Below the pieces are notes generated by a model, which worked only from the letters and a program-made list of their open reading frames with translations, was not told the origin of the DNA and did no database searches. This document shows, piece by piece, positions 664 through 56,069 of a DNA stretch of 64,000 nucleotides (position 1 is its first letter; every line of letters begins with the position of its first letter). Origin of the DNA: a virus. Lineage: Duplodnaviria; Heunggongvirae; Uroviricota; Caudoviricetes. The DNA lies in the IMG/VR virus record IMGVR_UViG_2751185836_000001; one strand, 5' to 3'. The position numbers were made by a program, and so were the translations under genes.

Positions 664-1001
664 ATAATTTATCCTCCTTAGATTTATTTTATAATTACAG
701 TAATCATAATTCAAAAACATATAGACTATTAAAATTAAATACGATAGTATATTATTTTTTAATTTGTCATTTAATTCTCTAACGATTAGTGATATGATAG
801 AATAAGCGAACATATCATGGATCAGCATATGCTTCTCCAGGCGGGATACAGGTGGCGGCTCATGTTCGTCTGAGAAAATTTGCTTGCAGCCTGTTGTGTT
901 ATCATTATCTCAGACGGGATGAAAATACGACAACCAAGGCAAGCCGCCCGTTCAGCGGAGGATCCGTTCGCGCTTGTCAATATAATTGGAGGGAACGAGT
1001 T

Positions 1002-16653: not shown

Positions 16654-17097
16654 ATGAGTAAACGTGGACTATCCGCCTTGAGAAAAGGTGTTATAATATT
16701 TCTCCTATTTGCCAGTATATTATCCGACGTGGGATGCAGAGTAGAAAGAGACTCCGTAGAGGAGCCTGACCATTTAACGCAAAGACAGGAGGAGCTACTG
16801 GAAGAAATGGGCCTCCCGACAGAGTATGACAGTCTCACGGACTCGCAGAAGAACGCGATCACATCCATTGAGGATTGCCTTACATATCTGGAGGACAAAT
16901 ATCACGAGGAATTCCGCTATCTGTCTTATGCGAAAGCAGGTCCGCTAGAAGAGGAGCATCTGGAGGCATATCCGGCGTCAGAAACACCATCAGATGTGGT
17001 AACAGTGTACCGGACGTATGAGGACGGAGAGTATCATTACGAAGATGATTACAATAACCAAGCGGGAAAGCTGCCACTGGTAACAGTGTGCAGATGA
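16654..17097 (+). CDS. putative lipoprotein with C-terminus supplied by IS-B left end
   Basis: RBS GGGAGGAAAAATAAT. N-terminus MSKRGLSALRKGVIIFLLFASILSDVGC is a signal peptide plus Cys. The last about 15 codons (DYNNQAGKLPLVTVCR*) lie inside the IS-B LE that starts after TTAC at 17049..17052. Confidence 0.5.
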   Translation: MSKRGLSALRKGVIIFLLFASILSDVGCRVERDSVEEPDHLTQRQEELLEEMGLPTEYDSLTDSQKNAITSIEDCLTYLEDKYHEEFRYLSYAKAGPLEEEHLEAYPASETPSDVVTVYRTYEDGEYHYEDDYNNQAGKLPLVTVCR

Positions 17098-17147
17098 TAG
17101 CGCAACTATTAGTAAAAGCATCATTGACTCACAAGAGGAACAGTAAC

Positions 17148-18623
17148 ATGGCGCGTACCCGAACAGACAGCTTTATACTCGAACTGAAATTGAAGACTTC
17201 CCCGGCTGATGTCGCATACCTGGAAAAGTGCTTCTCCGCGGGCCACAGTATCTACAATATACTGGTCAGGCACTGCCGTGGGCGGATCGCTTCCCTCCGG
17301 CAGGACCAGACCTACCGGGAACTGCTGGCTGAATACCGCACCCTGCAAGAAGGAAATGAACGCAAGGCCGTAGCAGAACGGTTAAAAGTCCTCGTCGCTG
17401 CCTATGGGCTGACAGAATACAGCCTCCATTCCTTTGTAAAAGGACAGCAGAAAAAGCATAAAAATTACATCAACAGCCTGGTGGCACAAAAGATCGCCTC
17501 GTCCGTCTGGAAAGGCGTGGAAAAAGTCCTATACGGGAACGGAAAGTTTTTGCACTTCCGGAAATATACAGAGTTTGTTTCCCTGGAAGGAAAGAACAAC
17601 AGCACCGGGTTTATTTTCCAGGACGGCATTTTAAAAGTGAACAGTAGGCCCATTTATGTGTCACGTCATAAGAGAGACGGGTCCACCTCCCGCTTGTATG
17701 AAGATGAAGCTTTAAAGCAACGCGTAAAATACTGCCGGCTGGTGCGCAGGCCGATCGGCTCCTCCTGGCATTATTATGTCCAATTAGTCCTGGAAGGGAC
17801 GGCACCCGTCAAACACAGACTTGGGAGTGGCCGGGCCGGCCTGGATATCGGGACTTCCACGGCGGCGGTGGCTACAAGGCAAGAATGTATCCTCACGGTG
17901 CTGGGGGAAAGTGTTGAGGACATCGAAAAAGAACAGCGCCGCCTGCTCCGGAAAATGGACCGGTCCCGCCGGGCCATGAACCCGTGGAACTATAACCCTG
18001 ACGGCACGGTCAGGAAGGGGCGGAAGAAATGGATCAACAGCGCCCATTACCGCAGGATGCGCATGGAATACGCCTCCCTTCGCCGGAAACGGGCGGCTGC
18101 CCTGAAGCAGTGGCAGGAAGCTATGGCAAACCGGATCGTAAGCCAATGCGACACCTTGTATGTGGAGAAGATGAACTTCAAAAGCCTGCAGAGGAGGGCA
18201 AAAACATCAAAAGTTAAGGAAAACGGGAAACACACCAGGAGGAAGCGGTTCGGGAAGAGCCTGCAGGCCCGTGCACCCGCCCAGTTCTGCCGAACGCTGA
18301 AACGGAAGCTGGAAGCCCTGGGCGGCCAATATCTGGAAGTGGATACCAGAGCCTTCCGGGCCAGCCAGTATGACCATGTAACTGATACCTATACAAAGAA
18401 AAAACTCTCCAGACGCCACAATATCATCGATGGACGGTGGGTCCAGAGAGACCTGTATTCCGCTTTCCTTTTGAGCAACAGCGCTGAAGACCTGGCCCAC
18501 GCGGACAGGGATCGCTGTAACGAAACATTTGACCTTTTCCTTAAGAACCACGACGCCTGCGTTGCCAAGATCCGTAACACGAAAACAAAGATACCACGCA
18601 GCTTTGGGTTCCAAGCTGCATGA
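17148..18623 (+). CDS. tnpB: TnpB-like RNA-guided endonuclease (OrfB) of IS element B; RuvC-I/II/III residues present, zinc-finger degenerate
   Basis: N-terminus MARTRTDSFILELKLKTS..LEKCFSAGHSIYNILV matches the TnpB N-terminal pattern. GLDIGTST is RuvC-I, LYVEKMNF is RuvC-II, QRDLYSAFLL is RuvC-III. The expected CxxC..CxxC is replaced by RAFRASQYDH. Confidence 0.75.
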   Translation: MARTRTDSFILELKLKTSPADVAYLEKCFSAGHSIYNILVRHCRGRIASLRQDQTYRELLAEYRTLQEGNERKAVAERLKVLVAAYGLTEYSLHSFVKGQQKKHKNYINSLVAQKIASSVWKGVEKVLYGNGKFLHFRKYTEFVSLEGKNNSTGFIFQDGILKVNSRPIYVSRHKRDGSTSRLYEDEALKQRVKYCRLVRRPIGSSWHYYVQLVLEGTAPVKHRLGSGRAGLDIGTSTAAVATRQECILTVLGESVEDIEKEQRRLLRKMDRSRRAMNPWNYNPDGTVRKGRKKWINSAHYRRMRMEYASLRRKRAAALKQWQEAMANRIVSQCDTLYVEKMNFKSLQRRAKTSKVKENGKHTRRKRFGKSLQARAPAQFCRTLKRKLEALGGQYLEVDTRAFRASQYDHVTDTYTKKKLSRRHNIIDGRWVQRDLYSAFLLSNSAEDLAHADRDRCNETFDLFLKNHDACVAKIRNTKTKIPRSFGFQAA

Positions 18624-18850
18624 TAAAACGGGACCCCGGGCCCGACTGAGTCCGATGCCGCGAATGGTGCCACCAGGTGCCTTGGCATGAAATTCCATGA
18701 TAGAACGGATAACTATAACAAACGGAGTGTCTTTCCCAAAAGGAAATGACAGCTTCCAGAGGAAGCCGCCATTTTCCGAGAGGACATTGCCCAAGTGATG
18801 TTATTTTGTTTTTGGAACCTCCCGCTGGTAACAGCGTGGAGAGCAGTCAG
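18624..18850 (+). ncRNA. predicted omega-RNA scaffold region of IS element B
   Basis: The 227-bp segment between the tnpB stop and the RE terminus is conserved in all B copies and in the MITE. It contains multiple hairpins (CCCGGGCCCG..., GAGGAAGCCGCC...). Flanks diverge exactly after CAGTCAG. Confidence 0.35.
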
Positions 18851-29648: not shown

Positions 29649-29737
29649 ATTAGTAGTATAAAATCAAATACTCAAAGGAGGTGATCTTATTTATGCAGCC
29701 GATGTATTGGGTCCTGCTCTTTGTCTTGCTGACCCTT

Positions 29738-29851
29738 CGCTAGAGCACCGGATCCCCAGCATCTGGACCAGAAGCGCTTTTATTGCCACGGTCGGGTCCG
29801 TCTCCCTGGAAACAGTTAAAGCATACATTGACTCACAGAAGGAACAGTAAA
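29738..29851 (+). pseudogene. tnpA: 3' remnant of IS200-type tnpA (last ~37 codons)
   Basis: Encodes ...PSLEHRIPSIWTRSAFIATVGSVSLETVKAYIDSQKEQ*, identical to the C-terminus of the intact TnpA at 53971..54366. Confidence 0.5.
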
Positions 29852-31327
29852 ATGGCACGTACCCGAACAGACAGCTTTATACTTGAACTGAAATTGAAGA
29901 CTTCCCCGGAGGATGCCGCGTACCTGGCAAAGTGCTTCTTCGCGGGCCACGGTATCTACAATATACTGGTCAGGCACTGCCGCAGGCGGATCGCTTCCCT
30001 CCGGCAGGACCAAGCCTACCGGGAACTGCTGGCTGAATACCGCACCCTGAAAGACGAAAACGAACGCAAGGCCGTATCAGAGCAGTTAAAGGCCATCGTC
30101 GCGTCCTATGGGCTGACGGAATACAGCCTCCATTCCTTTGTGAAAGTACAGCAGAAAAAGCACAAAAAATATATCAACAGCCTGGTGGCACAAAAGATCG
30201 CCTCTTCCGTCTGGAAAGGTGTAGAAAAAGTCCTATACGGGAATGGAAAGCTTTTGCATTTTCGAAAATATACGGAGTTTGTTTCCCTGGAAGGAAAGAA
30301 CAACAGCACAGGGCTCATTTTCCAGGACGGCATTTTAAAAGTAAACGGGCGGCCTGTTTATGTGTCACGTCATAAGAGAGACGGGTCCACTTCCCGCTGG
30401 TATGAAGATGAAGCTTTAAAGCACCGCGTAAAATACTGCCGGCTGGTGCGCAAGCCTGTCGGCTCCTCTTGGCATTATTATGTTCAATTAGTCCTGGAGG
30501 GGACAGCACCCGTCAAACACAGCCTTGGGAGTGGTCGGGCCGGCTTGGATATCGGGACTTCCACGGCGGCGATGGCTACAAGGCAAGAATGTATCCTCAC
30601 GGTGCTGGGGGAAAGTGTTGAGGACATCGAAAAAGAACAGCGCCGCCTGCTCCGGAAAATGGACCGGTCCCGCCGGGCCATGAACCCGTGGAACTATAAC
30701 CCTGACGGCACGGTCAGGAAGGGACGGAAGAAATGGATCAACAGCGCCCATTACCGCAGGATGCGCATGGAATACGCCTCCCTTCGCCGGAAACGGGCGG
30801 CTGCCCTGAAGCAGTGGCAGGAAGCTATGGCAAACCGGATCGTAAGCCAATGCGACACCCTGTATGTGGAGAAAATGAACTTCAAAGCCCTGCAGAGGCG
30901 GGCAAAACCATCATCGGTCAAGGAAAACGGAAAACACACCAGGAGGAAACGGTTTGGGAAGAGCCTGCAGACCCGGGCCCCAGCCCAGTTCTGCCGGACA
31001 CTGAAACGGAAACTGGAAGCCCTGGGCGGCCAATACCTGGAAGTGGATACCAGAGCCTTCCGGGCCAGCCAGTATGACCATGTAACTGATACCTATACAA
31101 AGAAAAAACTCTCCAGACGCCACAATATCATAGATGGACGGTGGGTCCAGAGAGACCTGTATTCCGCTTTCCTTTTGAGCAACAGCGCTGAAGACCTGGC
31201 CCACGCGGACCGGGATCGCTGTAATGAAACATTCAACCTTTTCCTTAAGAACCACGACGCCTGCGTTGCCAAGATCCGTAACACGAAAACAAAGATACCA
31301 CGCAGCTTTGGGTTCCAGGCTGCATGA
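29852..31327 (+). CDS. tnpB: TnpB-like RNA-guided endonuclease of IS element B
   Basis: About 93% identical to the 17148..18623 and 54368..55843 proteins. ATG immediately after the tnpA remnant stop. Confidence 0.75.
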   Translation: MARTRTDSFILELKLKTSPEDAAYLAKCFFAGHGIYNILVRHCRRRIASLRQDQAYRELLAEYRTLKDENERKAVSEQLKAIVASYGLTEYSLHSFVKVQQKKHKKYINSLVAQKIASSVWKGVEKVLYGNGKLLHFRKYTEFVSLEGKNNSTGLIFQDGILKVNGRPVYVSRHKRDGSTSRWYEDEALKHRVKYCRLVRKPVGSSWHYYVQLVLEGTAPVKHSLGSGRAGLDIGTSTAAMATRQECILTVLGESVEDIEKEQRRLLRKMDRSRRAMNPWNYNPDGTVRKGRKKWINSAHYRRMRMEYASLRRKRAAALKQWQEAMANRIVSQCDTLYVEKMNFKALQRRAKPSSVKENGKHTRRKRFGKSLQTRAPAQFCRTLKRKLEALGGQYLEVDTRAFRASQYDHVTDTYTKKKLSRRHNIIDGRWVQRDLYSAFLLSNSAEDLAHADRDRCNETFNLFLKNHDACVAKIRNTKTKIPRSFGFQAA

Positions 31328-31554
31328 TAAAACGGGACCCCGGGCCCGACTGAGTCCGATGCCGCGAATGGTGCCAACAGGTGCCTTGGCATGAAATTCC
31401 ATGATAGAACGGATAACTATAACAAACGGAGTGTCTTTTCAAACAGAAAATGACAGCTTCCAGAGGAAGCCGCCATTTTCCGAGAGGACATTGCCTAAGT
31501 GATGTTATCTTGTTCCCGGAACCTCCCGCTGGTAACAGCGTGGAGAGCAGTCAG
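31328..31554 (+). ncRNA. predicted omega-RNA scaffold region of IS element B
   Basis: Same conserved 227-bp RE as 18624..18850. Confidence 0.35.
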
Positions 31555-35391: not shown

Positions 35392-35544
35392 GCGGGGAAG
35401 GAGATATTATAAAGATGAGTAACGATACTTGGGTCTTGATTGAACATAACCTAAGCACGTAATCCCCTTCCTCGACAGGGGGGGAGTGCTTCGCTACCTG
35501 CCAAAGCTATCATGGCAATGTTGTCCATTGTCTACCAGTTTACT

Positions 35545-35595
35545 GTTGTTATCTTGTTTCAGGAACCTCCCGCTGGCAGCGTGGAGAGCAGTCAG
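35545..35595 (+). mobile_element. solo fragment of IS-B right end
   Basis: GTTGTTATCTTGTTTCAGGAACCTCCCGCTGGCAGCGTGGAGAGCAGTCAG matches the terminal about 50 bp of the B RE (one indel in the hairpin). Confidence 0.4.
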
Positions 35596-40170: not shown

Positions 40171-40950
40171 ATGCGGTTTCGTGGAGTCTATCAACATGAT
40201 ACAAGGGATTGTGGAGTCGCATGCTTGGCTACAATCTGCAATTTTTATGGATTAAACGTTCCATTATCTTACATTCGAGAGTTAGAAAAGGTGAATATGA
40301 ATGGATCTAGTATCTATGGAATTTGCAAAGCTGCCGAGGTACTTGGAATGACAGCGGACGCTTATCAAGGAGAAATCGAAGATTTACTTTCTAATGTAAA
40401 CGAGACAAAGGAAATAGCAGTTCCATTTATAGTGCATACCATAAAAGATGATCTTTATCATTTTATGGTCGTAAAAAAGATAAGCACAAAATCAGTATGG
40501 CTTTTTGATCCAGATGAAGGAAACAGAAAAATAAAATTGGACGAATTTGCAAAGATCTGGACAGGCTATTTTATTGCTTTTCAATTGACGCCTCTTTTCA
40601 AAAAAGAAAATTTAAAAAAAGGAGCTTATCAAAATTATTCCTTATTATTTAAAAAATATAGAAAAGAATTTTTTACTATTCTGGGAACCTCTTTGTTAAT
40701 TGCGGGAATTACAATAGTAAGTACCCTCATTTTCCAACACATTATTGATCATTTTATGATGCACCCGAATTATGAATTAATGAGGGAAGTGAATACGATT
40801 TTCGCTATCATAATAGGTCTTTATATCTTAAGGTTGGGGATTTACCTTTTCAGGAGTATTATCGTAGCCATGCTTTTTCGCAATATAGAAAAGGATTTCC
40901 TTGAAAATTTTCAGGAAAACCTACTCAAAGTACCGTTGTCCTATTTTGAC
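40171..40950 (+). pseudogene. N-terminal part (C39 peptidase domain + first TM helices) of a bacteriocin-processing ABC exporter, cut by IS element A
   Basis: QHDTRDCGVACLATICNFYG is the C39 Cys-active-site motif. The ORF runs into the IS LE at 40951 (LPPHARDFSRE* is encoded by the IS). No TMD or NBD continuation is found after the IS. Confidence 0.65.
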
Positions 40951-41208
40951 GCATTACCGCCGCACGCTCGTGACTTTAGTCGTGAGTAAGGCGGTCTTAT
41001 ATTTTATTCTATTAATAGTTATTTTTTGTTATTGTTAAGATATGTATAAACAACATTTTTTCTAAGTTTTTTTGTTCATCTGATAAAAATGATCTTATTT
41101 GCATATTTGTTATAATGGATAAAAATGTATCTTAATTGTGAGCATATGGCTACAACGCATGTTATGACATGATTGCAGTCACGGAAAACCAAATGAAAGG
41201 AGTCGTCT

Positions 41209-42534
41209 ATGAAACTCATCTCCACATATAGTGTGAAACTAAAAGAATACAGACATATCTTCAAAGACACCATCCGAGTGTACCGTGCAGCGGTAGACTT
41301 CTTTCTCATGGTCTGTGACCAGGAATGGGAGAAAGTCTCTGACATCAGTACATCAAAATTTCAGATGACGTTTATAGAACAGCTCACACATAAAACAGCA
41401 AAAAATCCGGCCACAAAATATGATTTTGATGCAGTCTTTTATAAGTTTCCCTCTTACCTACGTCGAGCAGCCATTTATGAGACTTTAGGTAAATACTTTT
41501 CCTATCGATCCAACCTGGCAAACTGGGAAAGGGATCCGCAGGGGCGGAAACCTTCCTTCCCTAAAGCGGGATACGTGTATCCCTGTCTGTACCGGGATGG
41601 CATGTACGAGCGGACAGATATATACACAGCTCGGATCAAGGTCTATATCCGCAATACCTGGGACTGGATCGATATTAAACTTCGTAAAAGTGATGTGGAT
41701 TACATCCAACGTCACTGCTCCCACAGAAAGGAGTGTGCCCCCACTCTCCAGAAAAGGGGAAAAGAATGGTTCCTGGACTTTCCTTTTGAGGAACAGGTTA
41801 CATTGAACAACACACCTTCCAAAGAGCAGGTGATCGCTGCCGTGGACCTTGGCATCAACAGCGCCGCCACGGTTTCCGTTATGCGCGCGGATGGCACTGT
41901 CCTGGGCCGGCATTTCTGTCGGCTTCCCAGAGAAAAAGACTCTCTTGCGCATGCGGTGAACCGGGTCAAAAAAGCACAGCAGCACGGAGCCAGGAAAATG
42001 CCCCGCTTATGGGCACGGGCGAACGGCATCAATGACGATATCGCGGTCAAAACAGCAAGGTTTATCATTGAGGTGGCCGTCCTTTATAACGCGGATGTGA
42101 TCGTGTTCGAGCACCTGGACCTGAAGGGTCGGAAGCGCGGCTCCAAAAAGCAGCGTCTCCACTTATGGAAAGCCCGCCGTGTCCAGTCCATCGTAACGGA
42201 CCAAGCCCACCGTCTTGGTATGCGCGTCAGCCATGTCAACGCCTGGAACACCAGCCGCCTTGCCTTCGATGGCAGCGGGCGCGTCCTCCGGGGCCGGCAG
42301 TCTGAAAAGACGGGTGGCTCCTACAGCGTATGCGAGTTCCAGAACGGAAAGGTCTATAACTGCGACCTGAACGCCACCTATAACATAGGGGCGAGATACT
42401 TTATCCGGACACTCTTAAAATCCTTGCCGGCAACGGAGAGGTTGGCCGTGGAGGCAAAAGTCCCTTCATGCGCTAAGAGAAGCACCTGCACCTTATCCAC
42501 GCTTACTAGCCTGTACGCGGTCCTGGCGGCTTAA
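41209..42534 (+). CDS. tnpB: TnpB (OrfB) RNA-guided endonuclease of IS element A
   Basis: 441 aa. C-terminal NAWNTSRLAFDGSG...CDLNATYNIGARYF carries the TnpB RuvC-III D.NAA.NI signature. Confidence 0.8.
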   Translation: MKLISTYSVKLKEYRHIFKDTIRVYRAAVDFFLMVCDQEWEKVSDISTSKFQMTFIEQLTHKTAKNPATKYDFDAVFYKFPSYLRRAAIYETLGKYFSYRSNLANWERDPQGRKPSFPKAGYVYPCLYRDGMYERTDIYTARIKVYIRNTWDWIDIKLRKSDVDYIQRHCSHRKECAPTLQKRGKEWFLDFPFEEQVTLNNTPSKEQVIAAVDLGINSAATVSVMRADGTVLGRHFCRLPREKDSLAHAVNRVKKAQQHGARKMPRLWARANGINDDIAVKTARFIIEVAVLYNADVIVFEHLDLKGRKRGSKKQRLHLWKARRVQSIVTDQAHRLGMRVSHVNAWNTSRLAFDGSGRVLRGRQSEKTGGSYSVCEFQNGKVYNCDLNATYNIGARYFIRTLLKSLPATERLAVEAKVPSCAKRSTCTLSTLTSLYAVLAA

Positions 42535-43175: not shown

Positions 43176-43808
43176 ATGTACGATATTAACAAAACGCTGG
43201 AAAAGGTGGAAAAATTTGAATGCCAATTTCCCGGAGCCGCCGGGCTTGAGCTTTTCAAGGAGATACGGTGGCATCTCAATGAGCCTTTGTTGTCTTACTG
43301 TCGGCAGGAGGCTGTGTACCGGCTGAGTGAAGCGGGATATCATTCCCCGTCCGAGGTTCTGATCGAAGAAGCAACCATGGCGCTCTACACTAATGATCAA
43401 TTTATAAACTCAGAAGTGGCAGAGAGCACCATAGAGGCAGTTATCGCCGACCATGGTATTCATCTTTCGGATATGCTCGAAGAGGATGAGACCCTCGTGG
43501 ACTATACAATCTCTTCCTGTTACGCGACATACCATTGTATCATGCAGCGGAACGGGACGGATCTGGGAGGCGCGCTTGAGGATACACTTCACCGCATCAT
43601 TGATATGGATGGCGACGCGGAGGATATCCAGAGAATTATGGGCGCTGTCATCCCGGAAATCCCTAAAAAGGCTGAAGAAGATGCGGGTGAGGCTTGGCTG
43701 AAAGAAACATATCCTGACGGGTATCTTGACCTGGATCTGGGATACATCATCCCCGGATGCATCCTTACTATGGAAAAGAGGGTTGAGGAGGAAGCAAGAT
43801 GTGTGTAA
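43176..43808 (+). CDS. hypothetical protein, paralog family P (member 1)
   Basis: RBS AAGAAGAGGAGGAAACC. N-terminus LEKVEKFECQFPGAAGLELFKEIRWHLNEP. C-terminal GYLDLDLGYIIPGC, as in the 46621 and 47644 proteins. Confidence 0.5.
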   Translation: MYDINKTLEKVEKFECQFPGAAGLELFKEIRWHLNEPLLSYCRQEAVYRLSEAGYHSPSEVLIEEATMALYTNDQFINSEVAESTIEAVIADHGIHLSDMLEEDETLVDYTISSCYATYHCIMQRNGTDLGGALEDTLHRIIDMDGDAEDIQRIMGAVIPEIPKKAEEDAGEAWLKETYPDGYLDLDLGYIIPGCILTMEKRVEEEARCV

Positions 43809-44239
43809 TGAATGAAAAATATCCTCTTCCAACTGTGGAGCGCCGGATATGCAACAGCAATCCCACTCGGATAGCGAAAAGGATGATACAAGAAGGGGAA
43901 GAAGCGTGGTATAGGCTGGCAGGTGAATTGTATGATGCTCAGGCAGAGGATCTTCTTCGTCAGTTGGAAGAAGGTCCGGGCGAGTCAGGCTATGGAGAGC
44001 CGCAGGCGTATCTGGATCTTCCAAACAGCCGAACACTGGAAGTCACCCACGAGGAGTATGGACTTCCTAAAGAACAGCAGTTTTACTCCTGGCGCGTGAA
44101 CTGTTCAGATAAGGAATATGAACATGATGCCTATCATTGCACATGCGGGGTGATAGACCAGTCGTATTCTGATGATATTGATCTGGACACTTGTTCCCTG
44201 ATGCTGCAATGGGCCTATCGAGTGGCGAGGCTCTCGTAA
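43799..44239 (+). CDS. hypothetical protein
   Basis: Overlaps the upstream stop by 10 nt. 146 aa. Confidence 0.45.
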   Translation: MCVMNEKYPLPTVERRICNSNPTRIAKRMIQEGEEAWYRLAGELYDAQAEDLLRQLEEGPGESGYGEPQAYLDLPNSRTLEVTHEEYGLPKEQQFYSWRVNCSDKEYEHDAYHCTCGVIDQSYSDDIDLDTCSLMLQWAYRVARLS

Positions 44240-44515
44240 AAAATAGTAAATACCGTATGGCAAGAACGTCCTGAAGAGGGCGTTCTTTTTGTAATTCTGT
44301 TTTCTTCTATATACCAGTGATATTTTAAAGTTCCCTCAAACTCCATGCTGATCCGACAAATATTGTCTGCTGTTTTCCGAGCTATTGTTATTTCTTCCTC
44401 TTTTATAAATGATCTCGGAAAAATATGCGCAAACCCGGAAGTTGAGTTTCCGTTTTTTCCTTTCGAGATTATTACCATATTTTAATGATCATTTTTAAGA
44501 AGAGGAGGACGAACT

Positions 44516-44983
44516 ATGTACATAATTATGTTTGGGAACGATGAAAACCTTTACCACGAGGGCCCTTTTAAGACCTGGGAGGATGCCAGAAAAGTTTTTG
44601 AAAAACGATACGAGGAGCAGACAGCCAGCGTTGAGGAAGAATGGCTGGATATGTGCTGCCTGGGCAATGGCACCTATACGGTGTACATGAATGGGGAGTA
44701 CGTGATCAATGCGGAGATCTACAGTTATGAAGAGTTGTTCGGGATTTCCGCTGACGGACCTAACCCGGTTGAGGGAGTGCCGGACAAAGTGGAGCCCTCG
44801 GAACCTTCTAGTGAAGGCATCACCGGCCGGTATTACCTGGATGGGCAGGCACAAAAAGAAGGATCTTTTCTGTGTGTTCCCCGAAAGGGTGAAAATGTCA
44901 TGCTGGACAGCGGTGTGTATGAGGTACAGCAGGTTTGCCACTATGCGGACGATCCGCATCTCGTGGACATCTTCTTGGGATAA
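44516..44983 (+). CDS. hypothetical protein
   Basis: RBS AAGAAGAGGAGGACGAAC. 155 aa. Confidence 0.45.
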   Translation: MYIIMFGNDENLYHEGPFKTWEDARKVFEKRYEEQTASVEEEWLDMCCLGNGTYTVYMNGEYVINAEIYSYEELFGISADGPNPVEGVPDKVEPSEPSSEGITGRYYLDGQAQKEGSFLCVPRKGENVMLDSGVYEVQQVCHYADDPHLVDIFLG

Positions 44984-45087
44984 CGTACATGCAAAGAAGG
45001 ACAGGGACAGCAATGCCCCTGTTTTTCTTTTGCCATGCCATCTTTCATATTCCTTAGAAATGTTCGAGAAAAAAGGAGGAATACGAT

Positions 45088-45768
45088 ATGGTAAAAGAAA
45101 TAAAGGGTGACCTGTTAAAGGCGGGCACATATTACATCGCACATCAGGTGAACTGCCGCGGCAAGATGGGGGCCGGCGTGGCCTACCAGATCAGGCGGCA
45201 TGTATTGGGAGAGAGAGGGTACAACGACTACCGTGCCGTGTGCCGGAACAAGTCTCCCGAGAAGCTGCTCGGGACCAATCAGTATTACCCGGTCAAGGGT
45301 GGCCAGGTGGTCGTGAACATGTTCGGGGAGGATATCCCCACTGGCACGGAGAACGACACGGATTATGAAGCTCTCCAGAAGTGTCTGGAGAACCTGAAGC
45401 ACTCCATGGAAAGAGGGCACAGGGACGCTTCCATTCCCGGATACTTAGGCTGTGGCCTTGCCGGCGGATGCTGGGACTATGTTTACACGTCCATCATACT
45501 GCCGATCTTCAAGGATAGCAACCAGACCCTGTATATCATTTACAGGGATGACAGCATTCTCAAGCTCTGGAACGAGTTCCAGGATGTCCCCTGTACCAGG
45601 GGAGGGGCAATCTCGGAAAGCTGGCACGGCTTTGAAATCTTCACCGATACCTTTCTTATCTGGAAATGGTTCGAGGAGACGTTTGACCTGAGCGTCCGGA
45701 GGGATCTACTGAAAGAGAGGGACGACCTCACGCCGCTCTTTACACATCCTTTATCATCCGTTTCCTGA
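45088..45768 (+). CDS. macro-domain (ADP-ribose-binding/processing) protein; stop codon lies in MITE terminus
   Basis: GDLLKAGTYYIAHQVNCRGKMGAGVAYQI and GCGLAGGCW match macro-domain motifs (VNAAN..GGGV, TG.YG). RBS AAAGGAGGAATACGAT. Confidence 0.55.
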   Translation: MVKEIKGDLLKAGTYYIAHQVNCRGKMGAGVAYQIRRHVLGERGYNDYRAVCRNKSPEKLLGTNQYYPVKGGQVVVNMFGEDIPTGTENDTDYEALQKCLENLKHSMERGHRDASIPGYLGCGLAGGCWDYVYTSIILPIFKDSNQTLYIIYRDDSILKLWNEFQDVPCTRGGAISESWHGFEIFTDTFLIWKWFEETFDLSVRRDLLKERDDLTPLFTHPLSSVS

Positions 45769-46162
45769 CTGCTCTCCACGCTGTTACCAGCGGGAGGTTC
45801 CATAAACAAGATAACATCACTTAGGCAGTTCTCTCTCGGAAAATGGCGGGGTCCTCTGGAAGCCGCCGTTTCCTTTTTATGAAGACACTCCGTTTGTTAT
45901 AGTTATCTGTTCTATCATGGAATTTCATGCCAAGGCACCTGTTGGCACCATTCGCGGCATCGGACTCAGTCGGGCCCGGGGTCCCATTTTATTATACAGT
46001 CTGGAACCCAAAACTGCGGGTATCATAATGTAGTTCTATTATAATATAAAACGAAGAAAAATGCAAACGTATGTTCTTATTTCCGCTTTTCTTACAAGCC
46101 ATGCGAGAGTTTCGCTTTCATCTGCACACTGTTACCAGTGGCAGCTTTCCCGCTTGGTTATT
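45765..46162 (-). mobile_element. MITE/PATE derived from IS element B (LE joined to RE, no ORFs)
   Basis: The rc of 46118..46162 equals the B left end (AATAACCAAGCGGGAAAGCTGCCACTGGTAACAGTGTGCAG), with flanking GTAA as the rc of target TTAC. 45765..45990 is the rc of the 227-bp B right end. The ~130-bp interior matches the tnpA promoter region of copy 3. Confidence 0.6.
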
Positions 46163-46247
46163 GTAAAGACATCCCCGGCAGTCCCGGGGGTGTTTTTTTC
46201 ATAGACTTTTACAAGCGAAAAAGGAGCGGGAGACCGCTCCTTCCTCT

Positions 46248-46505
46248 TTACAGTGGCTTAAAGATGTACGTGCTTGTCGCCGTGCTCATGACCCACATGC
46301 CATCGTGAATGGCTTGTTCTTTCGGACGGACCACGAAGAATTCCTTCTGTCCGTTTTCGAAGGCCCATCCGCCCTCGTTCCTTTCATGTGCCTCCAGCGC
46401 GTGCTCGATCGGTATGGGCGTGTTGTCCGGCAGGGATTTTGCCCATTCCGGGCCAAACTTGGCCATCACCTGCTCGTTAGTCGTAAAACACAGTGTCACT
46501 TTCAT
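46248..46505 (-). CDS. hypothetical protein
   Basis: 85 aa. RBS GAGGAGGAACAAG on the minus strand. Confidence 0.45.
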   Translation of the reverse strand: MKVTLCFTTNEQVMAKFGPEWAKSLPDNTPIPIEHALEAHERNEGGWAFENGQKEFFVVRPKEQAIHDGMWVMSTATSTYIFKPL

Positions 46506-46620
46506 TTCTTGTTCCTCCTCTGGTTTTGCAATTTCGGATGAATATGGTTAAGACCAGGTTTTTATTTTCCGAGGCTTTTTCATATTCCAGAGAAATCATT
46601 TATAAGAGGAGGAATGACAT

Positions 46621-47226
46621 ATGCTGAAGAATGTCAACGAAACACTTGAAAAACTGGATCGTTTCGAGAAGACTGCGGATCCCGACCTGAAGGCTTTCCT
46701 TATGGAAGTTGGCTGGCACTTGGAGAACCTGCATCTCTCTAAATGTGTGCAGGACGCCATATTTCACTTGGGCGACAAGGGATATTACAACCCAAGTGAA
46801 GAGCTGTTAGAAAGGACAACCAAAGCCTTGTTTTATAACAAGGACATGCAGGAGCACCAAGATGAACATGCTGGAAGGATTGTAGGAAATGTCCTGTCGG
46901 ATATTCGTCCGCAGATTTCCTATTTCCTTGTACCGCCGAGAGATGTGATCGTGGATTACACGCTGAACACAGGAGACACGTTCCAGTGCATCATGAGGAT
47001 TTGGGACGCAGATTTTGAGAAAGCGCTGAAAAATACACGGGATTTGCTGCTCCGGCATGGCACAGACGAAGACGTAAAACGGATTATGGGGGCCTATGTT
47101 CCCGAAAGGGAGGAAGACAGAAAACTCAAAACATCCGGGAAGTACACCGACCTGGGGGATGGCTATATCCTTCCTGGTTACGTGATCAGTGTAGTGAAGA
47201 GGATGCCTGGAGAGGAGGAAGCCTGA
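46621..47226 (+). CDS. hypothetical protein, paralog family P (member 2)
   Basis: RBS ATAAGAGGAGGAATGAC. LEKLDRFEKTADPDLKAFLMEVGWHLENLHLSKCVQDA parallels members 1 and 3. Confidence 0.5.
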   Translation: MLKNVNETLEKLDRFEKTADPDLKAFLMEVGWHLENLHLSKCVQDAIFHLGDKGYYNPSEELLERTTKALFYNKDMQEHQDEHAGRIVGNVLSDIRPQISYFLVPPRDVIVDYTLNTGDTFQCIMRIWDADFEKALKNTRDLLLRHGTDEDVKRIMGAYVPEREEDRKLKTSGKYTDLGDGYILPGYVISVVKRMPGEEEA

Positions 47227-47537
47227 TGACAAATATCTACGAACTCAAAGAAGGCGTTGGTTTTGTCCGGTTGGTCGCGGTGTATTCCCTGGAACCGAAG
47301 GCTGCTCTGGTCGCCTATATCCGGCAGAGCATCCATAAGGATTTCAACACATGGACTTACCCAGAAGAAATCCCGGGGATGCGGGAGTCGGATACGGTAA
47401 AGGATCACTGGTACTATGATGACCATGCAGGTCGGAGAGTGATCAGTGCGTATCCGGAAAAAACTTGCCTATTTTCTACTCCTCGAAGAATGTGCCTCTT
47501 TGCCAATCCCGACGAGGTGGCGTACAAACGAGAATAA
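47226..47537 (+). CDS. hypothetical protein
   Basis: ATGA overlap with the upstream gene. 103 aa. Followed by a GCGTGC..GCACG hairpin plus T-run terminator. Confidence 0.4.
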   Translation: MTNIYELKEGVGFVRLVAVYSLEPKAALVAYIRQSIHKDFNTWTYPEEIPGMRESDTVKDHWYYDDHAGRRVISAYPEKTCLFSTPRRMCLFANPDEVAYKRE

Positions 47538-47643
47538 GAAAGATGATCCGTGAGTTAAAAGGCGTGCTTTGTGCACGTCTTTTTTTCTTGGTCTTCTTTT
47601 GGCATATTCCTGTGAAAATTTTAGATAAGAGGAGGACAAAAAT

Positions 47644-48552
47644 ATGTTAATTCACGTAGCAGACACGATTGAGAGGCTCAACGCCTTTGAGGAGACCGCG
47701 GATCCGGAGGTTCTTGCCCAGGTAAGGGATCTTTTGCGGGAGGTCCGCTGGCATCTGGAGAACCCGTCCCTTTCCATGTGCGTCCAGGAAGCGGCATTTG
47801 AACTGGGAGAAGAGGGATATGACCATCCGTCCCAGGAACTGCTGGAGGAAGCCACGAAAGCACTGTACTTCAGTGAGACCTTCATCGATGGCGAAACAGC
47901 GTATGACCTTGTAGAGAAGGTCATAGAGGAGAGAGGGCTGCGGCTGGAAGACATCATCGAAGACGGTGAAGTCCTGGTGGAATACGGGACAACAGTCATC
48001 CCGCAGGCCCACTGCATCATGGCCAAGGAAAGTGATGATCTCATGAGCGCACTGGAAGACACGCTCCACAGGATCCTCTTGATCGGCGATGAAGGAGATG
48101 TCAATGAGATCATGGGAGCACGCCGCGCGAACGATGCTGAGATGGACGCGCTTGCCGAGAATGACGAGGAGTTCATCGAAATCGATGACGGCTACATCCT
48201 GCCGGGATACATAGCCGGCATGAAAAAGCTGGAAGCTCGGCGGATCAAAAGCCTTGCGGACCTGCTCTTCCTGGATGACAGGATCGTGGAGTTCCGTACA
48301 ACCGCCTATCCGTTTCCCTTACACTGTATCATGGGGGAGAAGAAAGCGGTGACCGTGGAGAACATCAAGGCAGCTCTGAGTGTCACACTTGGGCGTATGC
48401 TCGGCAGCGGCGCGACGGAAGCGGATGTCAGGCATTTCCTTGGAGCGTTCATCCCAACGGATGAAAAGCACAAGTTTATGCTGACGCATGACCATTACTT
48501 TGATATCGGGCTTGGCTACATCCTGCTGGGCGAAATCCTGCTCAGTGAATGA
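47644..48552 (+). CDS. hypothetical protein, paralog family P (member 3, two tandem domains)
   Basis: RBS ATAAGAGGAGGACAAAAAT. Contains two repeats of the family domain (IMGA..P....GYILPGYI and FLGAFIP....GLGYILLG). Confidence 0.5.
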   Translation: MLIHVADTIERLNAFEETADPEVLAQVRDLLREVRWHLENPSLSMCVQEAAFELGEEGYDHPSQELLEEATKALYFSETFIDGETAYDLVEKVIEERGLRLEDIIEDGEVLVEYGTTVIPQAHCIMAKESDDLMSALEDTLHRILLIGDEGDVNEIMGARRANDAEMDALAENDEEFIEIDDGYILPGYIAGMKKLEARRIKSLADLLFLDDRIVEFRTTAYPFPLHCIMGEKKAVTVENIKAALSVTLGRMLGSGATEADVRHFLGAFIPTDEKHKFMLTHDHYFDIGLGYILLGEILLSE

Positions 48553-53766: not shown

Positions 53767-53970
53767 CAAGGAAAGGAGAATAGCTATGACGGCTTTCGAG
53801 GTATATTACAATAACTAAGTGGGAAAGCTGCCACTGGTAACAGTGTGCAGATGAAAGAGCAACTCTCGCAAGGCTTGTAAGAAAAAAAAGAAGGTACCAA
53901 ACATATGTTTGTATTTTTCTTCGTTTCATATTATAATAGAACTATATTATAAATCTAGTGGAGTTATCCT

Positions 53971-54366
53971 ATGACAAAATACTACCGTACCCCTCATTTG
54001 GTTTATGACTGTAAATACCATGTCATATTCTGTCCCAAGTACCGGCGCGGTATTCTGATAAACGGGCTGGATGAACTGGTGAAATCAGTATTCCTTAAGA
54101 TCGCGGAACAGAAGAACTTTCAAATCGTCGAGATGGAAGTTATGCCGGATCATGTCCATTTGCTGATATCCTGTAACCCGCGTTTTGGCATCATGAATTG
54201 CGTCCGAGCCTTAAAGCGGTATTCCGCCGCACCCATGCGGGAGTTTGACCCTTCGCTAGAGCACCGGATCCCCAGCATCTGGACCAGAAGCGCTTTTATT
54301 GCCACGGTCGGGTCCGTCTCCCTGGAAACAGTTAAAGCATACATTGACTCACAGAAGGAACAGTAA
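53971..54366 (+). CDS. tnpA: IS200/IS605-family Y1 (HUH) transposase TnpA
   Basis: YHVIFCPKYRRGIL, HVHLLIS (HuH), and catalytic Tyr region RALKRYSAA. 131 aa. Confidence 0.8.
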   Translation: MTKYYRTPHLVYDCKYHVIFCPKYRRGILINGLDELVKSVFLKIAEQKNFQIVEMEVMPDHVHLLISCNPRFGIMNCVRALKRYSAAPMREFDPSLEHRIPSIWTRSAFIATVGSVSLETVKAYIDSQKEQ

Positions 54367-54367
54367 A

Positions 54368-55843
54368 ATGGCACGTACCCAAACAGACACCTTTATACTC
54401 GAACTAAAATTGAAGACTTCCCTGGCGGATGCCGCGTACCTGGCAAAGTGCTTCTCCGCGGGCCAGGGTATCTACAATATACTGGTCAGGCACTGCCGCA
54501 GGCGGATCGCTTCCCTCTGGCAGGACCAGACCTACCGGGAACTGCTGGCTGAATATCGCACCCTGAAAGACGGAAACGAGCGCAAGGCCGTATCAGAGCG
54601 GTTAAAAGTCCTCGTAGCGGCCTATGGGCTGACGGAATACAGCCTCCATTCCTTTGTGAAAATCCAGCAGAAAAAGCATAAAAAATACATCAACAGCCTG
54701 GTGGCGCAAAAGATTGCCTCTTCCGTCTGGAAAGGTGTAGAAAAAGTCCTATACGGGAATGGAAAGCTTTTGCGTTTCCGAAAATATACAGAGTTTGTTT
54801 CCCTGGAAGGAAAGAATAACAGCACAGGGCTCATTTTCCAGGACGGCATTTTAAAAGTAAACGGGCGACCTATTTATGTGTCACGTCATAAGAGAGACGG
54901 GTCCACTTCCCGCTGGTATGAAGATGAAGCTTTAAAGCACCGCATAAAATACTGCCGGCTGGTGCGCAAGCCTGTCGGCTCCTCTTGGCATTATTATGTT
55001 CAATTAGTCCTGGAGGGGACAGCACCCGTCAAACACAGGCTTGGGAGTGGCCGGGCCGGCCTGGATATCGGGACTTCCACGGCGGCGGTTGCTACAAAGC
55101 AAGAGTGTATCCTCACGGTGCTGGGGGAAAGCGTTGAGGATATCGAAAAAGAACAGCGCCGGCTGCTCCGGAAAATGGACCGGTCCCGCCGGGCTATGAA
55201 CCCGCAGAACTATAACCCCGACGGCACGGTCATGAAGGGGCGGAAGAAATGGATCAGCAGTGCCCATTACCGCAGGATGCGCATGGAATACGCCTCCCTC
55301 TGCCGGAAACGGGCGGCGACCCTGAAGCAATGGCAGGAGGCTATGGCAAACCAGATCGTAAGCCAATGTGACACCTTGTATGTGGAGAGGATGAACTTCA
55401 AAGCTCTGCAGAGGCGGGCAAAAACATCACCTGTCAAGGAAAATGGGAAACACACCAGGAGGAAACGGTTTGGGAAGAGCCTGCAGACCCGAGCCCCAGC
55501 CCAGTTCTGCCGGACCCTGAAACGGAAACTGGAAGCCCTGGGCGGCCAATATCTGGAAGTGGATACCAGAGCCTTCCGGGCCAGCCAGTATGACCATGTG
55601 ACTGATACCTACACAAAGAAAAAGCTCTCCAGACGCCACAACATCATAGATGGTCGGTGGGTCCAGAGAGACCTGTATTCCGCTTTCCTTTTGAGCAACA
55701 GCGCAAAAGACCTGGCCCACGCGGACCGGGATCGCTGTAATGAAACATTCAACCTTTTCCTTAAGAACCACGACGCCTGCGTCGCCAAGATCCGTAACAC
55801 AAAAATTAAGATACCCCGCAGCTTTGGGTTCCAGGCTGCATAA
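54368..55843 (+). CDS. tnpB: TnpB-like RNA-guided endonuclease of IS element B
   Basis: ATG 1 nt after the tnpA stop. 491 aa. Same motifs as 17148..18623. Confidence 0.75.
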   Translation: MARTQTDTFILELKLKTSLADAAYLAKCFSAGQGIYNILVRHCRRRIASLWQDQTYRELLAEYRTLKDGNERKAVSERLKVLVAAYGLTEYSLHSFVKIQQKKHKKYINSLVAQKIASSVWKGVEKVLYGNGKLLRFRKYTEFVSLEGKNNSTGLIFQDGILKVNGRPIYVSRHKRDGSTSRWYEDEALKHRIKYCRLVRKPVGSSWHYYVQLVLEGTAPVKHRLGSGRAGLDIGTSTAAVATKQECILTVLGESVEDIEKEQRRLLRKMDRSRRAMNPQNYNPDGTVMKGRKKWISSAHYRRMRMEYASLCRKRAATLKQWQEAMANQIVSQCDTLYVERMNFKALQRRAKTSPVKENGKHTRRKRFGKSLQTRAPAQFCRTLKRKLEALGGQYLEVDTRAFRASQYDHVTDTYTKKKLSRRHNIIDGRWVQRDLYSAFLLSNSAKDLAHADRDRCNETFNLFLKNHDACVAKIRNTKIKIPRSFGFQAA

Positions 55844-56069
55844 AAAATAGGACCCCGGGCCCGACTGAGTCCGATGCCGCGAATGGTGCCAACAGGTGCC
55901 TTGGCATGAAATTCCATGATAGAACAGATAACTATAACAAACGGAATGTCTTCTTAAAAAAGAAAAGACGGCTTCCAGAGGAACCCGTCATTTCCTGAGA
56001 AGACATTGCCTAAGTGATGTTATCTTGTTCTCGGAACCTCCCGCTGGTAACAGCGTGGAGAGCAGTCAG
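55844..56069 (+). ncRNA. predicted omega-RNA scaffold region of IS element B
   Basis: Conserved RE, as 18624..18850. Confidence 0.35.

What the first reader, a model, noticed from the sequence alone, without database searches (positions are those of the whole stretch)
45765..46162. 398-bp MITE/PATE made of IS-B left end plus right end (stand-alone omega-RNA module), inserted at the stop codon of a macro-domain gene
On the minus strand 46162->46118 is the B left end and 45990->45765 is the complete 227-bp right end. The ~130 bp between them matches the tnpA promoter region of copy 3, so the MITE would be transcribed into a guide RNA scaffold from its own promoter. GTAA (rc TTAC) flanks the LE side. 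The RE terminal bases CTGACT supply the TGA stop of the macro-domain ORF (45766..45768). A gene-less element carrying an intact omega-RNA region could be mobilised in trans by TnpA, and its RNA could load TnpB from other copies with a guide from the 3' end of the macro gene.
Basis: seen in the sequence. Interest (0 to 1): 0.55.

Follow-up and report, generated by a model that had tools for sequence, protein, structure and literature searches.

The report
Gene-less mini-transposon carrying a guide-RNA module
A 398-bp gene-less derivative of an IS200/IS605 insertion sequence, made only of the two transposon ends plus the guide-RNA scaffold, sits exactly on the stop codon of a macro-domain gene in Lachnoclostridium phocaeense; it is a clean example of a kind of element that is already described.

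Summary
Window 46162..45765 (minus strand) is the left end (LE) plus tnpA promoter of the local IS200/IS605-family element, fused to its last 265 bp. Those 265 bp are 38 nt of the tnpB 3' end plus the 227-nt non-coding right end (RE). TTAC flanks the LE.

Homologous empty sites show the ancestral gene end was ...GTT TCG TAA followed by a terminator. The insertion rebuilt it as ...GTT TCC TGA, so the protein is unchanged.

The RE-derived part contains the whole conserved, covarying RNA structure of the family (the putative omega-RNA). Its start lies about 20 nt downstream of the conserved tnpA -10 box.

A copy with the same internal junction occupies a second TTAC site in another strain. That site is empty here and in nine other fetched contigs, so the element most likely moved as a unit, mobilised in trans.

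Three intact TnpB genes with a predicted TnpB fold, and one intact TnpA, lie in the window.

Transcription, TnpB loading and the genome-wide copy number are untested.

Gene-less IS605 derivatives (PATEs) that often encode omega-RNAs were already reported by Meers et al. 2023. This is therefore a new member of a known kind, of modest interest.

The parts
45765..46162 (-). Whole 398-bp gene-less element (PATE/MITE): LE plus tnpA promoter fused to the tnpB 3' tail plus RE.
   Evidence: The same element sits at the same locus in L002, L093, L125 and L127.
46163..46166 (-). TTAC target / transposon-adjacent motif next to the LE. On the + strand it reads GTAA and holds the gene's original TAA stop (46164..46166).
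   Evidence: TTAC precedes the LE at 9 of 9 independent insertions.
46122..46148 (-). LE subterminal imperfect hairpin CTGCCACTG-GTAA-CAGTG(T)GCAG (46144..46122), preceded by AAAG (46148..46145).
   Evidence: DNA folds, sequence. Identical in copies 1 and 3.
46038..46067 (-). tnpA-type promoter: TTTGCA, 18 nt, TATAAT.
   Evidence: 10 of 12 consensus matches. The -35 and -10 boxes are conserved across LEs of family members whose TnpB is 70-100% identical.
46025..46029 (-). Deletion junction (ATTAT). LE-derived sequence ends here and RE-derived sequence (GATACCCGCAG...) begins. It lies 9-13 nt downstream of the -10 box.
45765..46024 (-). RE-derived putative omega-RNA scaffold, comprising the tnpB 3'-terminal hairpin, the conserved blocks and the covarying helices.
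   Evidence: 54 of 57 consensus pairs are kept in this copy.
45765..45800 (-). RE subterminal hairpin CTCCCGCTG-GTAA-CAGCG(T)GGAG (45796..45774), preceded by GAAC (45800..45797) and followed by the tip AGCAGTCAG (45773..45765). The reverse complement of the tip supplies C+TGA.
   Evidence: The tip is invariant in all 10 family REs, and the flanks diverge immediately after ...TCAG.
45745..45764 (-). Flank that would be transcribed as the guide (GAAACGGAUGAUAAAG[GAUG]). It is antisense to the last codons of the macro-domain gene.
   Evidence: Position relative to the RE end. The guide role is inferred by analogy with published TnpB systems. The only near match to TTAC+guide in the window is the occupied site itself, where TCAG replaces TTAC.
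45088..45768 (+). Macro-domain ORF (226 aa). Its last sense codon and its stop (TC|C TGA) straddle the insertion point.
   Evidence: PF01661, E 0.0014, below cut-off; DarG-like macro domain, E 1e-9, below cut-off. Homologs end at the same residue.
46165..46198 (+). Original intrinsic (bidirectional-looking) terminator of the macro-domain gene, now displaced 398 bp from the ORF.
   Evidence: -21.7 kcal/mol, z -5.5. In the empty-site homologs L086 and L088 it sits directly after the stop codon.
53810..56069 (+). Full-length autonomous copy: TnpA 53971..54366 (HUH at residues 61-63, Tyr124) and TnpB 54368..55843. Candidate source of both proteins in trans.
   Evidence: TnpB fold.
17053..18850 (+). 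tnpA-deleted copy with an intact 491-aa TnpB (92.5% aa identity to copy 3).
29730..31554 (+). 5'-truncated copy with no LE and an intact 491-aa TnpB (93.7% aa identity).
296..299 (-). Empty TTAC site (+ strand GTAA) that carries a copy of the same MITE in contig L124 from another strain.

Best explanation
The element is a non-autonomous, gene-less internal-deletion derivative of the IS200/IS605-family insertion sequence present in this Lachnoclostridium phocaeense genome. In the literature such elements are called PATEs.

A deletion between the tnpA 5' UTR and a point 38 nt before the tnpB stop removed both genes. It kept three things. First, it kept both subterminal hairpins and their adjacent tetranucleotides, which is everything the Y1 transposase TnpA needs in cis. 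Second, it kept the tnpA promoter. Third, it kept the entire conserved structured RNA of the right end.

Shown: the anatomy; the exact insertion 3' of TTAC into the G-TAA stop of the macro-domain gene, with regeneration of Ser+stop; conservation and covariation of the RE RNA structure; and the presence of the same element at a second TTAC site in another strain.

Inferred: TnpA from a full-length copy excises and reinserts the element as single-stranded DNA. The retained tnpA promoter transcribes the scaffold plus about 16-20 nt of flank as an omega-RNA. TnpB from copies 1-3 binds it in trans and cuts the vacated TTAC+GAAACGGATGATAAAG site after excision. Recombinational repair then restores the element, as in the published homing/retention model.
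For: Anatomy and boundaries.

Family identity: TnpA matches PF01797 (E 9e-35) and NF033573 (133 bits, cut-off 55). The 491-aa protein matches NF040570 guided_TnpB over its full length (E 7e-17, below cut-off). Its AlphaFold model (pLDDT 88.7) has ISDra2 and ISFba1 TnpB-omegaRNA complexes as best PDB matches (E 8e-14 to 2e-12).

Insertion rule: TTAC|LE at 9 of 9 independent LE flanks, and ...TCAG| at every RE. There are three empty/occupied comparisons.

RNA: the alignment covers 10 REs whose TnpBs are 62-100% identical. In it, 96.1% of cells are paired against 40-45% in slid controls. 21 pairs change on both sides against 2-7 in the controls, and 0 of 500 shuffles reach the observed values. 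Synonymous-site conservation in tnpB rises only in about the last 9 codons, downstream of the MITE breakpoint. This copy keeps 54 of 57 consensus pairs, with compensatory changes at columns 18/31 and 192/267.

Promoter: TTTGCA-18-TATAAT, conserved in the family.

Mobility: L124 carries the same junction plus 3 private substitutions at window site 295|296. That site is empty in the source genome and in nine other contigs fetched in the same look-up. A polymorphic TnpB-bearing insertion at 47073|47074 shows the family is recently active.

Trans partners: three uninterrupted TnpB ORFs and one TnpA in the window.

Precedent: PATEs that often encode omega-RNAs.
Against: There are no expression data, so the promoter is only a consensus match plus conservation. 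Three pairs of one helix are broken in this copy. Only one copy lies in the 64-kb window, and the rest of the 3.5-Mb genome could not be searched. The junction 23-mer had no hit in JGI metagenomes, and the RE 19-mer scan found no further MITE locus there. The second locus rests on one metagenomic contig that ends inside the element. Another short contig (L126) shows a chimeric or recombinant join at this repeat. The terminal helix could be conserved for TnpA recognition of DNA rather than for RNA. The TnpB clade is divergent: it has no CxxC motifs, scores below the curated sequence thresholds, and its nuclease and RNA-binding activity is untested.
Confidence: 0.72

Rival explanations
1. In-situ relic. 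A full-length IS inserted at the macro-domain gene's stop codon and later lost its interior by a microhomology-mediated deletion. The remnant has never moved and has no activity.
For: There is a single copy in the window. ATTA microhomology lies at the junction. The window also holds other one-off deletion derivatives: copy 1, copy 2 and the RE stub at 35544..35595. No extra MITE locus was found in the JGI scan. Three pairs are broken in one helix.
Against: The identical junction occurs at a different TTAC site in L124, with private substitutions and ten empty alleles. Both hairpins, both adjacent tetranucleotides and the promoter are unchanged. Some substitutions in the RNA helices are compensatory.
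Confidence: 0.13
2. The second locus (L124) is an assembly artefact. Another LE-bearing element sits at that site, and the assembler walked from its LE tip into the macro-locus MITE.
For: The L124 contig ends inside the element. The first ~45 nt of the LE are identical among copies. L126 shows that a mixed join occurs at the RE tip of this repeat.
Against: L124 carries 3 substitutions not seen in any macro-locus copy. The MITE-type LE, only 84-87% identical to full-length LEs, continues right up to the TTAC flank. Even under this rival, an element did insert at that TTAC.
Confidence: 0.1
3. The main consequence is in cis on the macro-domain gene. The insert lengthens its 3' UTR by 398 nt, and a convergent promoter produces antisense RNA across the gene's 3' end. 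This would alter mRNA stability or termination rather than serve TnpB.
For: The native terminator is displaced by 398 bp. The promoter faces the gene. A terminator-like hairpin with a T-run lies on the + strand inside the element at 45858..45873. The insert is retained at this locus in strains that differ by 3-7%.
Against: The coding sequence is untouched. Nothing suggests selection for a regulatory role. This reading is compatible with, not alternative to, the PATE interpretation.
Confidence: 0.1

Closest known systems
PATEs (palindrome-associated transposable elements) of IS200/IS605 elements, e.g. those related to ISGst1 and ISGst5 in Geobacillus stearothermophilus (Meers et al. 2023, bioRxiv 10.1101/2023.03.14.532601)
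   Same: Both are gene-less, keep the LE and RE of a resident IS605-family element, are presumed to be mobilised by TnpA in trans, and 'often encode omega-RNAs' that must be used by TnpB encoded elsewhere.
   Different: The host is different (a gut Lachnospiraceae) and the TnpB clade is divergent (~490 aa). Here the deletion places the omega-RNA start about 20 nt downstream of the tnpA -10 box, and two insertion sites are documented with empty alleles. No experimental data exist for this element.
IS608 (Helicobacter pylori), the mechanistic reference for IS200/IS605 transposition
   Same: Both have a TTAC target 5' of the LE, imperfect subterminal hairpins with an extrahelical T, and AAAG just 5' of the LE hairpin. 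The RE tip TCAG paired with GAAC parallels IS608's TCAA paired with GAAT. The IS608 values are from my own knowledge of Barabas et al. 2008; the local sequences are.
   Different: The sequences are unrelated outside these motifs. The cleavage-site/guide pairing has not been tested here.
ISDra2 TnpB-omegaRNA (PDB 8H1J, 8EXA) and ISFba1 TnpB (8IAZ)
   Same: These are the best structural matches of the local 491-aa protein. In both, the RNA scaffold overlaps the tnpB 3' end and stops at the RE boundary, with the guide read from the flank.
   Different: Sequence identity is only 14-15%. The local protein has no CxxC motif anywhere, whereas ISDra2 TnpB has a zinc finger between RuvC-II and RuvC-III (my own knowledge). 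The local RNA matches no Rfam family.
PATE with IStron ends in Clostridioides difficile (Zedaveinyte et al. 2023, bioRxiv 10.1101/2023.11.20.567912)
   Same: It is a gene-less element in a Clostridia genome that keeps the LE and RE of a TnpB-bearing element.
   Different: IStrons carry a group I intron. No intron or other Rfam family is detected here.

Membership tests
IS200/IS605 family (parent element) | Y1 (HUH) transposase TnpA | tested here: met
   PF01797 at E 9e-35 and NF033573 at 133 bits against a cut-off of 55. HVH at residues 61-63 and Tyr124.
IS200/IS605 family (parent element) | Subterminal imperfect palindromes instead of terminal inverted repeats | tested here: met
   LE and RE hairpins with a bulged T and a GTAA loop are present in the MITE and in copy 3. 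The stem covaries between LE and RE and across relatives.
IS200/IS605 family (parent element) | Insertion 3' of a specific tetranucleotide without target duplication | tested here: met
   TTAC precedes the LE at 9 of 9 flanks. Empty versus occupied sites show no duplication.
IS200/IS605 family (parent element) | Accessory TnpB (RuvC-type RNA-guided nuclease) | tested here: met
   The predicted fold matches TnpB-omegaRNA complexes at E 8e-14. NF040570 is hit at E 7e-17 but below its cut-off, and PF01385 is also below cut-off. D233, E340 and D435 are conserved. Activity was not tested.
PATE / MITE (non-autonomous derivative) | Both transposon ends retained, with no protein-coding gene | tested here: met
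   The only ORF inside is a 38-aa antisense ORF with no homologs other than itself.
PATE / MITE (non-autonomous derivative) | Copies with the same internal structure at more than one locus (evidence of mobilisation) | tested here: met
   The same junction occurs at window site 295|296 in L124, and the site is empty in 10 other alleles. The evidence is one metagenomic contig. The copy number in the source genome was not testable.
PATE / MITE (non-autonomous derivative) | A cognate transposase available in trans | tested here: met
   An intact tnpA lies in copy 3, 7.6 kb away. Its LE and RE hairpins are identical to those of the MITE.
omega-RNA (OMEGA guide-RNA module) | Conserved structured RNA overlapping the tnpB 3' end and terminating at the RE boundary | tested here: met
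   The whole conserved region is retained in the MITE.
omega-RNA (OMEGA guide-RNA module) | Transcribed, processed and bound by TnpB, with guide-dependent DNA cleavage next to the TAM | not testable with these tools
   Only a conserved promoter and the TAM/guide geometry are available.
Any curated Rfam RNA family | Covariance-model match at the gathering score | tested here: not met
   There are no matches at gathering score in the window. At E<=1 the only match is a spurious 12-bit hit.

The most novel reading that the evidence does not exclude
The element may act as a free-standing guide-RNA gene. A deletion would have captured the tnpA promoter to drive an omega-RNA that programs TnpB made elsewhere. 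In addition, the two documented insertion sites of this MITE share 11 nt (CGTTTCGTAAA on the + strand), which is TTTAC|GAAACG in element orientation. That is 7 nt beyond the TTAC that TnpA needs, including the first 6 nt of the would-be guide. This could mean that target choice is biased by the omega-RNA seed, with TnpB assisting site selection, rather than by TnpA alone.
Probability: 0.05. Interest if true: 0.75.

Novelty: new member of a known kind. Interest (0 to 1): 0.3.

Why it matters
It gives a fully resolved natural example of the modularity proposed for IS605 systems: ends, guide RNA and proteins can be separated and supplied in trans. The example has base-exact boundaries, two insertion sites with empty alleles, and a covariation-supported RNA for an unstudied ~490-aa TnpB clade that is abundant in gut Lachnospiraceae (more than 3,500 relatives). 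The TTAC target is the reverse complement of G-TAA, and the reverse complement of the RE tip is C-TGA. An antisense insertion into an NNG-TAA gene end therefore regenerates a stop immediately, which may make such insertions nearly neutral. None of this changes the current understanding of these elements.

Tried and rejected
Rfam at gathering score and at E<=1 found no known RNA family and no group I intron, so the element is not an IStron.

BLAST of the MITE against the plasmid and phage collections found no match.

An exact RE 29-mer in the species-representative genomes and an RE 19-mer in IMG/VR each gave 0 hits. The source assembly is evidently not in that genome set, so a genome-wide copy count was impossible.

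The junction 23-mer gave 0 hits in JGI metagenomes. The RE 19-mer there gave 20 loci. Of these, 9 carry the IS family or a short RE stub of it and none is a new MITE locus. Another 4 carry a tiny one-hairpin element, and 7 are chance matches.

A protein search with the junction-spanning antisense ORF returned only the identical 38-aa ORF.

A profile search of the TnpB alignment against PDB sequences found nothing, so the fold search was needed.

I considered boundaries shifted by one base (TTA|C...TCA|G), because a first hand-joining of the flanks seemed to leave an extra G. This was rejected. Joining 45764 to 46163 gives ...GTT TCG TAA, exactly collinear with L086 and L088. RE flanks vary immediately after ...TCAG. 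The L099/window and L124/L132 pairs also break exactly at TTAC| and TCAG|.

The relatives in the species-representative genome collection have TnpB identity of 48% or less and lack the RE tip motif, so they were not used for the RNA alignment.

Full report
**Source.** The macro-domain protein encoded at 45088..45768 is found on NCBI record LT635479.1 (GCA_900120345.1), a single contig of 3,500,754 bp. That length matches the published genome of Lachnoclostridium phocaeense Marseille-P3177 (PMC8054182).

**The observation.** BLAST of the region against the window gives two matches to the full-length copy:
- Window 46166..46025 (minus strand) aligns to 53806..53950: TTAC, the left end (LE) and the region upstream of tnpA (86.5% identity, E 1e-45).
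- Window 46029..45765 aligns to 55805..56069: the last 38 nt of tnpB plus the non-coding right end (RE) (91.8% identity, E 1e-103).

The two blocks meet at ATTAT (46029..46025). ATTA occurs in both parental positions of copy 3, which suggests a microhomology-mediated deletion. No tnpA sequence remains.

**The IS family in the window.**
- Copy 3 (53810..56069) is complete. It encodes a 131-aa Y1 transposase: PF01797 at E 9e-35, and NF033573 at 133 bits against a cut-off of 55, with HVH at residues 61-63 and Tyr124. It also encodes a 491-aa accessory protein.
- Copy 1 (17053..18850) has lost tnpA.
- Copy 2 (29730..31554) has lost its LE.
- 35544..35595 is a 52-bp RE stub.
- All three 491-aa ORFs are uninterrupted and 92-94% identical.

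**Is the 491-aa protein a TnpB?** It is only weakly recognised by sequence models. PF01385 scores E 6e-4 and NF040570 guided_TnpB scores E 7e-17 over its full length; both are below their cut-offs. A profile search of PDB sequences found nothing. An AlphaFold model built from 25 homologs (mean pLDDT 88.7) has ISDra2 TnpB-omegaRNA complexes (8H1J at E 8e-14; 8EXA) and ISFba1 TnpB (8IAZ) as best matches, followed by Cas12f. D233, E340 and D435 are conserved in the family alignment. The clade has more than 3,500 relatives, mostly from gut metagenomes.

**Boundaries and insertion rule.**
- In an alignment of ten REs whose TnpBs are 62-100% identical, all end in ...GGAGAGCAGTCAG, and the flanks differ from the next base on.
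- Nine independent LE flanks all end in TTAC, six of them in TTTAC.
- Contig L099 carries a TnpB-bearing copy whose RE abuts window 47073. The window reads ...GTTTTAC|GTCTTCG... at that point, uninterrupted.
- Both ends have a 9-bp imperfect hairpin with a bulged T and a GTAA loop.
- The tetranucleotide 5' of the LE hairpin is AAAG, and the one 5' of the RE hairpin is GAAC.
- From my own knowledge, IS608 has target TTAC with AAAG, and RE tip TCAA with GAAT. The local pairs TTAC/AAAG and TCAG/GAAC fit the same scheme, with one covarying position. This is a comparison from memory, not a test.

**The insertion site.** Homologs of the macro-domain protein at 77-79% identity end at the same residue. 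Their loci have no insert:
- L086: ...TCG GTA TCT TAA CGGCAT-CCCCGG...
- L088: ...TCT GCA TCG TAG AAACAT-CCCCGG...

In each, the stop is followed directly by a strong terminator hairpin. Removing 45765..46162 from the window gives ...TCC GTT TCG TAA AGACAT-CCCCGG..., which is collinear with both. The element therefore entered 3' of TTAC on the minus strand. That is between the second and third base of the last sense codon of a gene ending in TCG TAA. The reverse complement of the RE tip (C TGA...) turns TC|G TAA into TCC TGA. The result is the same serine followed by an immediate stop, so the protein is unchanged. The old TAA (46164..46166) and the terminator (46165..46198, -21.7 kcal/mol) now lie 398 bp downstream.

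**Is the omega-RNA region complete?**
- RNAalifold on the ten-sequence RE alignment predicts 57 pairs.
- Counting on that structure gives 96.1% of cells paired, against 40-45% when partners are slid. 21 pairs change on both sides, against 2-7 in the slid controls. 0 of 500 shuffles reach the observed values.
- Two caveats apply. The structure was derived from the same alignment. The terminal helix is also the DNA hairpin recognised by TnpA.
- The first helix lies in the last 27 nt of tnpB. Synonymous-codon identity among seven tnpB genes stays near 0.5 along the gene. It rises only in about the last nine codons (CGC AGC TTT GGG TTC ...), while the two codons just upstream (ATA CCN) still vary.
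- The MITE breakpoint is 38 nt before the stop, upstream of that point, so the whole conserved RNA is retained.
- This copy keeps 54 of 57 consensus pairs. Two of its differences from copy 3 are compensatory double changes, and three pairs in one helix are broken.
- No Rfam family matches.

**The promoter.** TTTGCA-18-TATAAT (46067..46038, minus strand) scores 10 of 12. Both boxes are conserved in the LEs of family members whose TnpB is 70-100% identical, upstream of the tnpA Shine-Dalgarno sequence. In the MITE the junction lies 9-13 nt after the -10 box, and the conserved RNA starts about 20 nt after it. A transcript from this promoter would therefore run almost directly into the scaffold and then into the flank GAAACGGATGATAAAG. 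The bidirectional terminator just outside the LE would block read-in from the convergent 85-aa gene. All of this is inference; there are no expression data.

**Mobility.** The macro-locus copy recurs in several metagenomic contigs, at 95.5% identity in L093 and about 99.5% in L002, L005, L125 and L127. A 38-aa antisense ORF happens to span the junction. An exact look-up of it found four contigs.
- L124, from a 20.5-kb contig, has the same junction and three private substitutions. Its LE flank TTTAC| continues into sequence 96.7% identical to window 296..2168.
- The window, and all ten alleles fetched around the neighbouring 64-aa gene, lack any insert there. Nine of them read ...CATTTAC|GAAA[C/T]GCGG...; the tenth (L131) is a divergent allele that reads TTTGC at this point.
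- The same deletion derivative therefore occupies two different TTAC sites. This is best explained by transposition of the gene-less element in trans.
- The caveat is that the contig ends inside the element. A short contig, L126, shows a mixed join at the RE tip.
- The rest of the source genome could not be searched. The genome collection does not contain this sequence, and JGI metagenomes gave no further MITE locus.

**Mechanism.**
- Shown: the anatomy, the site, the RNA conservation, and a second locus.
- Inferred from the published IS605/TnpB model: TnpA from copy 3 excises and reinserts the element; the retained promoter makes an omega-RNA whose guide is the first 16-20 nt of flank; TnpB from copies 1-3 uses it in trans to cut the vacated site TTAC+GAAACGG...
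- The occupied site is immune because TCAG replaces TTAC.

**Comparison with what is known.** Meers et al. describe PATE-like, gene-less IS605 derivatives in G. stearothermophilus. [quoted passage not shown] A PATE with IStron ends is shown for C. difficile. The present element is a new member of that known kind, in a new host and a divergent TnpB clade. Its particular features are promoter capture by the deletion, restoration of the stop codon, and two documented sites. These are neat but not surprising.

**One unexplained detail.** The two MITE sites share TTTAC|GAAACG (see the novel case). RE flanks of the family are often (G)GAAA or AAAA, in roughly 7-8 of 17 flanks. A target preference may therefore account for much of the match.

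Noticed in passing
window 295|296 and 45764|46163; L124:240-260: The two insertion sites of the MITE share 11 nt (+ strand CGTTTCGTAAA), which is TTTAC|GAAACG in element orientation. That is 7 nt beyond the TTAC target and includes the first 6 nt of the would-be guide. RE flanks of the family are often A-rich, so a target preference may explain part of this.
   Followed up: partly
window 47073|47074 (TTAC reverse complement at 47074..47077); L099:1-1135: In another sample a TnpB-bearing copy of the same IS is inserted inside the 201-aa ORF 46621..47226, 3' of TTTTAC. The window has the empty site. The family is therefore polymorphic and recently active in this species.
   Followed up: yes
window 35544..35595; L100, L104, L114: These are solo RE stubs of 52-65 nt (hairpin plus tip) directly preceded by TTAC. 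They look as if everything from the first LE base to an internal RE position had been deleted. They recur at different loci, so they may be products of aberrant TnpA cleavage.
   Followed up: no
L095, L096, L097, L107 (other gut metagenome contigs): A tiny ~56-nt element: TTAC|AAAAAAACAAACTGAATTGAGAAAG-CTCCCGCTGCCTCAGCGTGGAG-AGCAGTCAG|. It has a single hairpin, with an LE-type AAAG on its 5' side and the RE tip on its 3' side. It may be a minimal one-hairpin derivative of a related IS.
   Followed up: no
L093:1030-1427; L092 and L094 contig ends: At the same macro-gene locus in other strains, the tip-proximal part of the element's RE is copy-3-like (99% in L092 and L094), while the rest of the element is MITE-like. 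This patchy similarity suggests gene conversion between IS copies.
   Followed up: partly
L126:1-20: A 575-bp contig joins the macro-locus MITE (with its LE flank) to 16 nt of the RE flank of the full-length IS seen in L111. This is either an assembly chimera at the shared 37-nt RE tip or a real recombinant.
   Followed up: partly
window 41209..42534 (+), with 40171..40989: A second, unrelated TnpB-like gene (441 aa; precomputed hits to PF27142 and, weakly, PF01385) lies directly after what looks like a truncated peptidase/ABC-transporter gene.
   Followed up: no
window 43176..48552 and L086: The macro-domain gene is weakly DarG-like (NF048014, E 1e-9, below cut-off). It sits among repeated paralogous acidic ORFs of 201, 210 and 302 aa with no Pfam match. 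A homologous locus carries a Lar_restr_allev gene. The region looks like an anti-defence or leading region of a mobile element, and it has five copies of one IS within 40 kb.
   Followed up: no
window 54368..55843 (and copies 1 and 2): The ~490-aa TnpB clade has no CxxC motif anywhere, yet keeps the D/E/D triad and a confident TnpB-like predicted fold. It has more than 3,500 relatives, mostly from gut metagenomes, and its RE RNA is absent from Rfam.
   Followed up: partly
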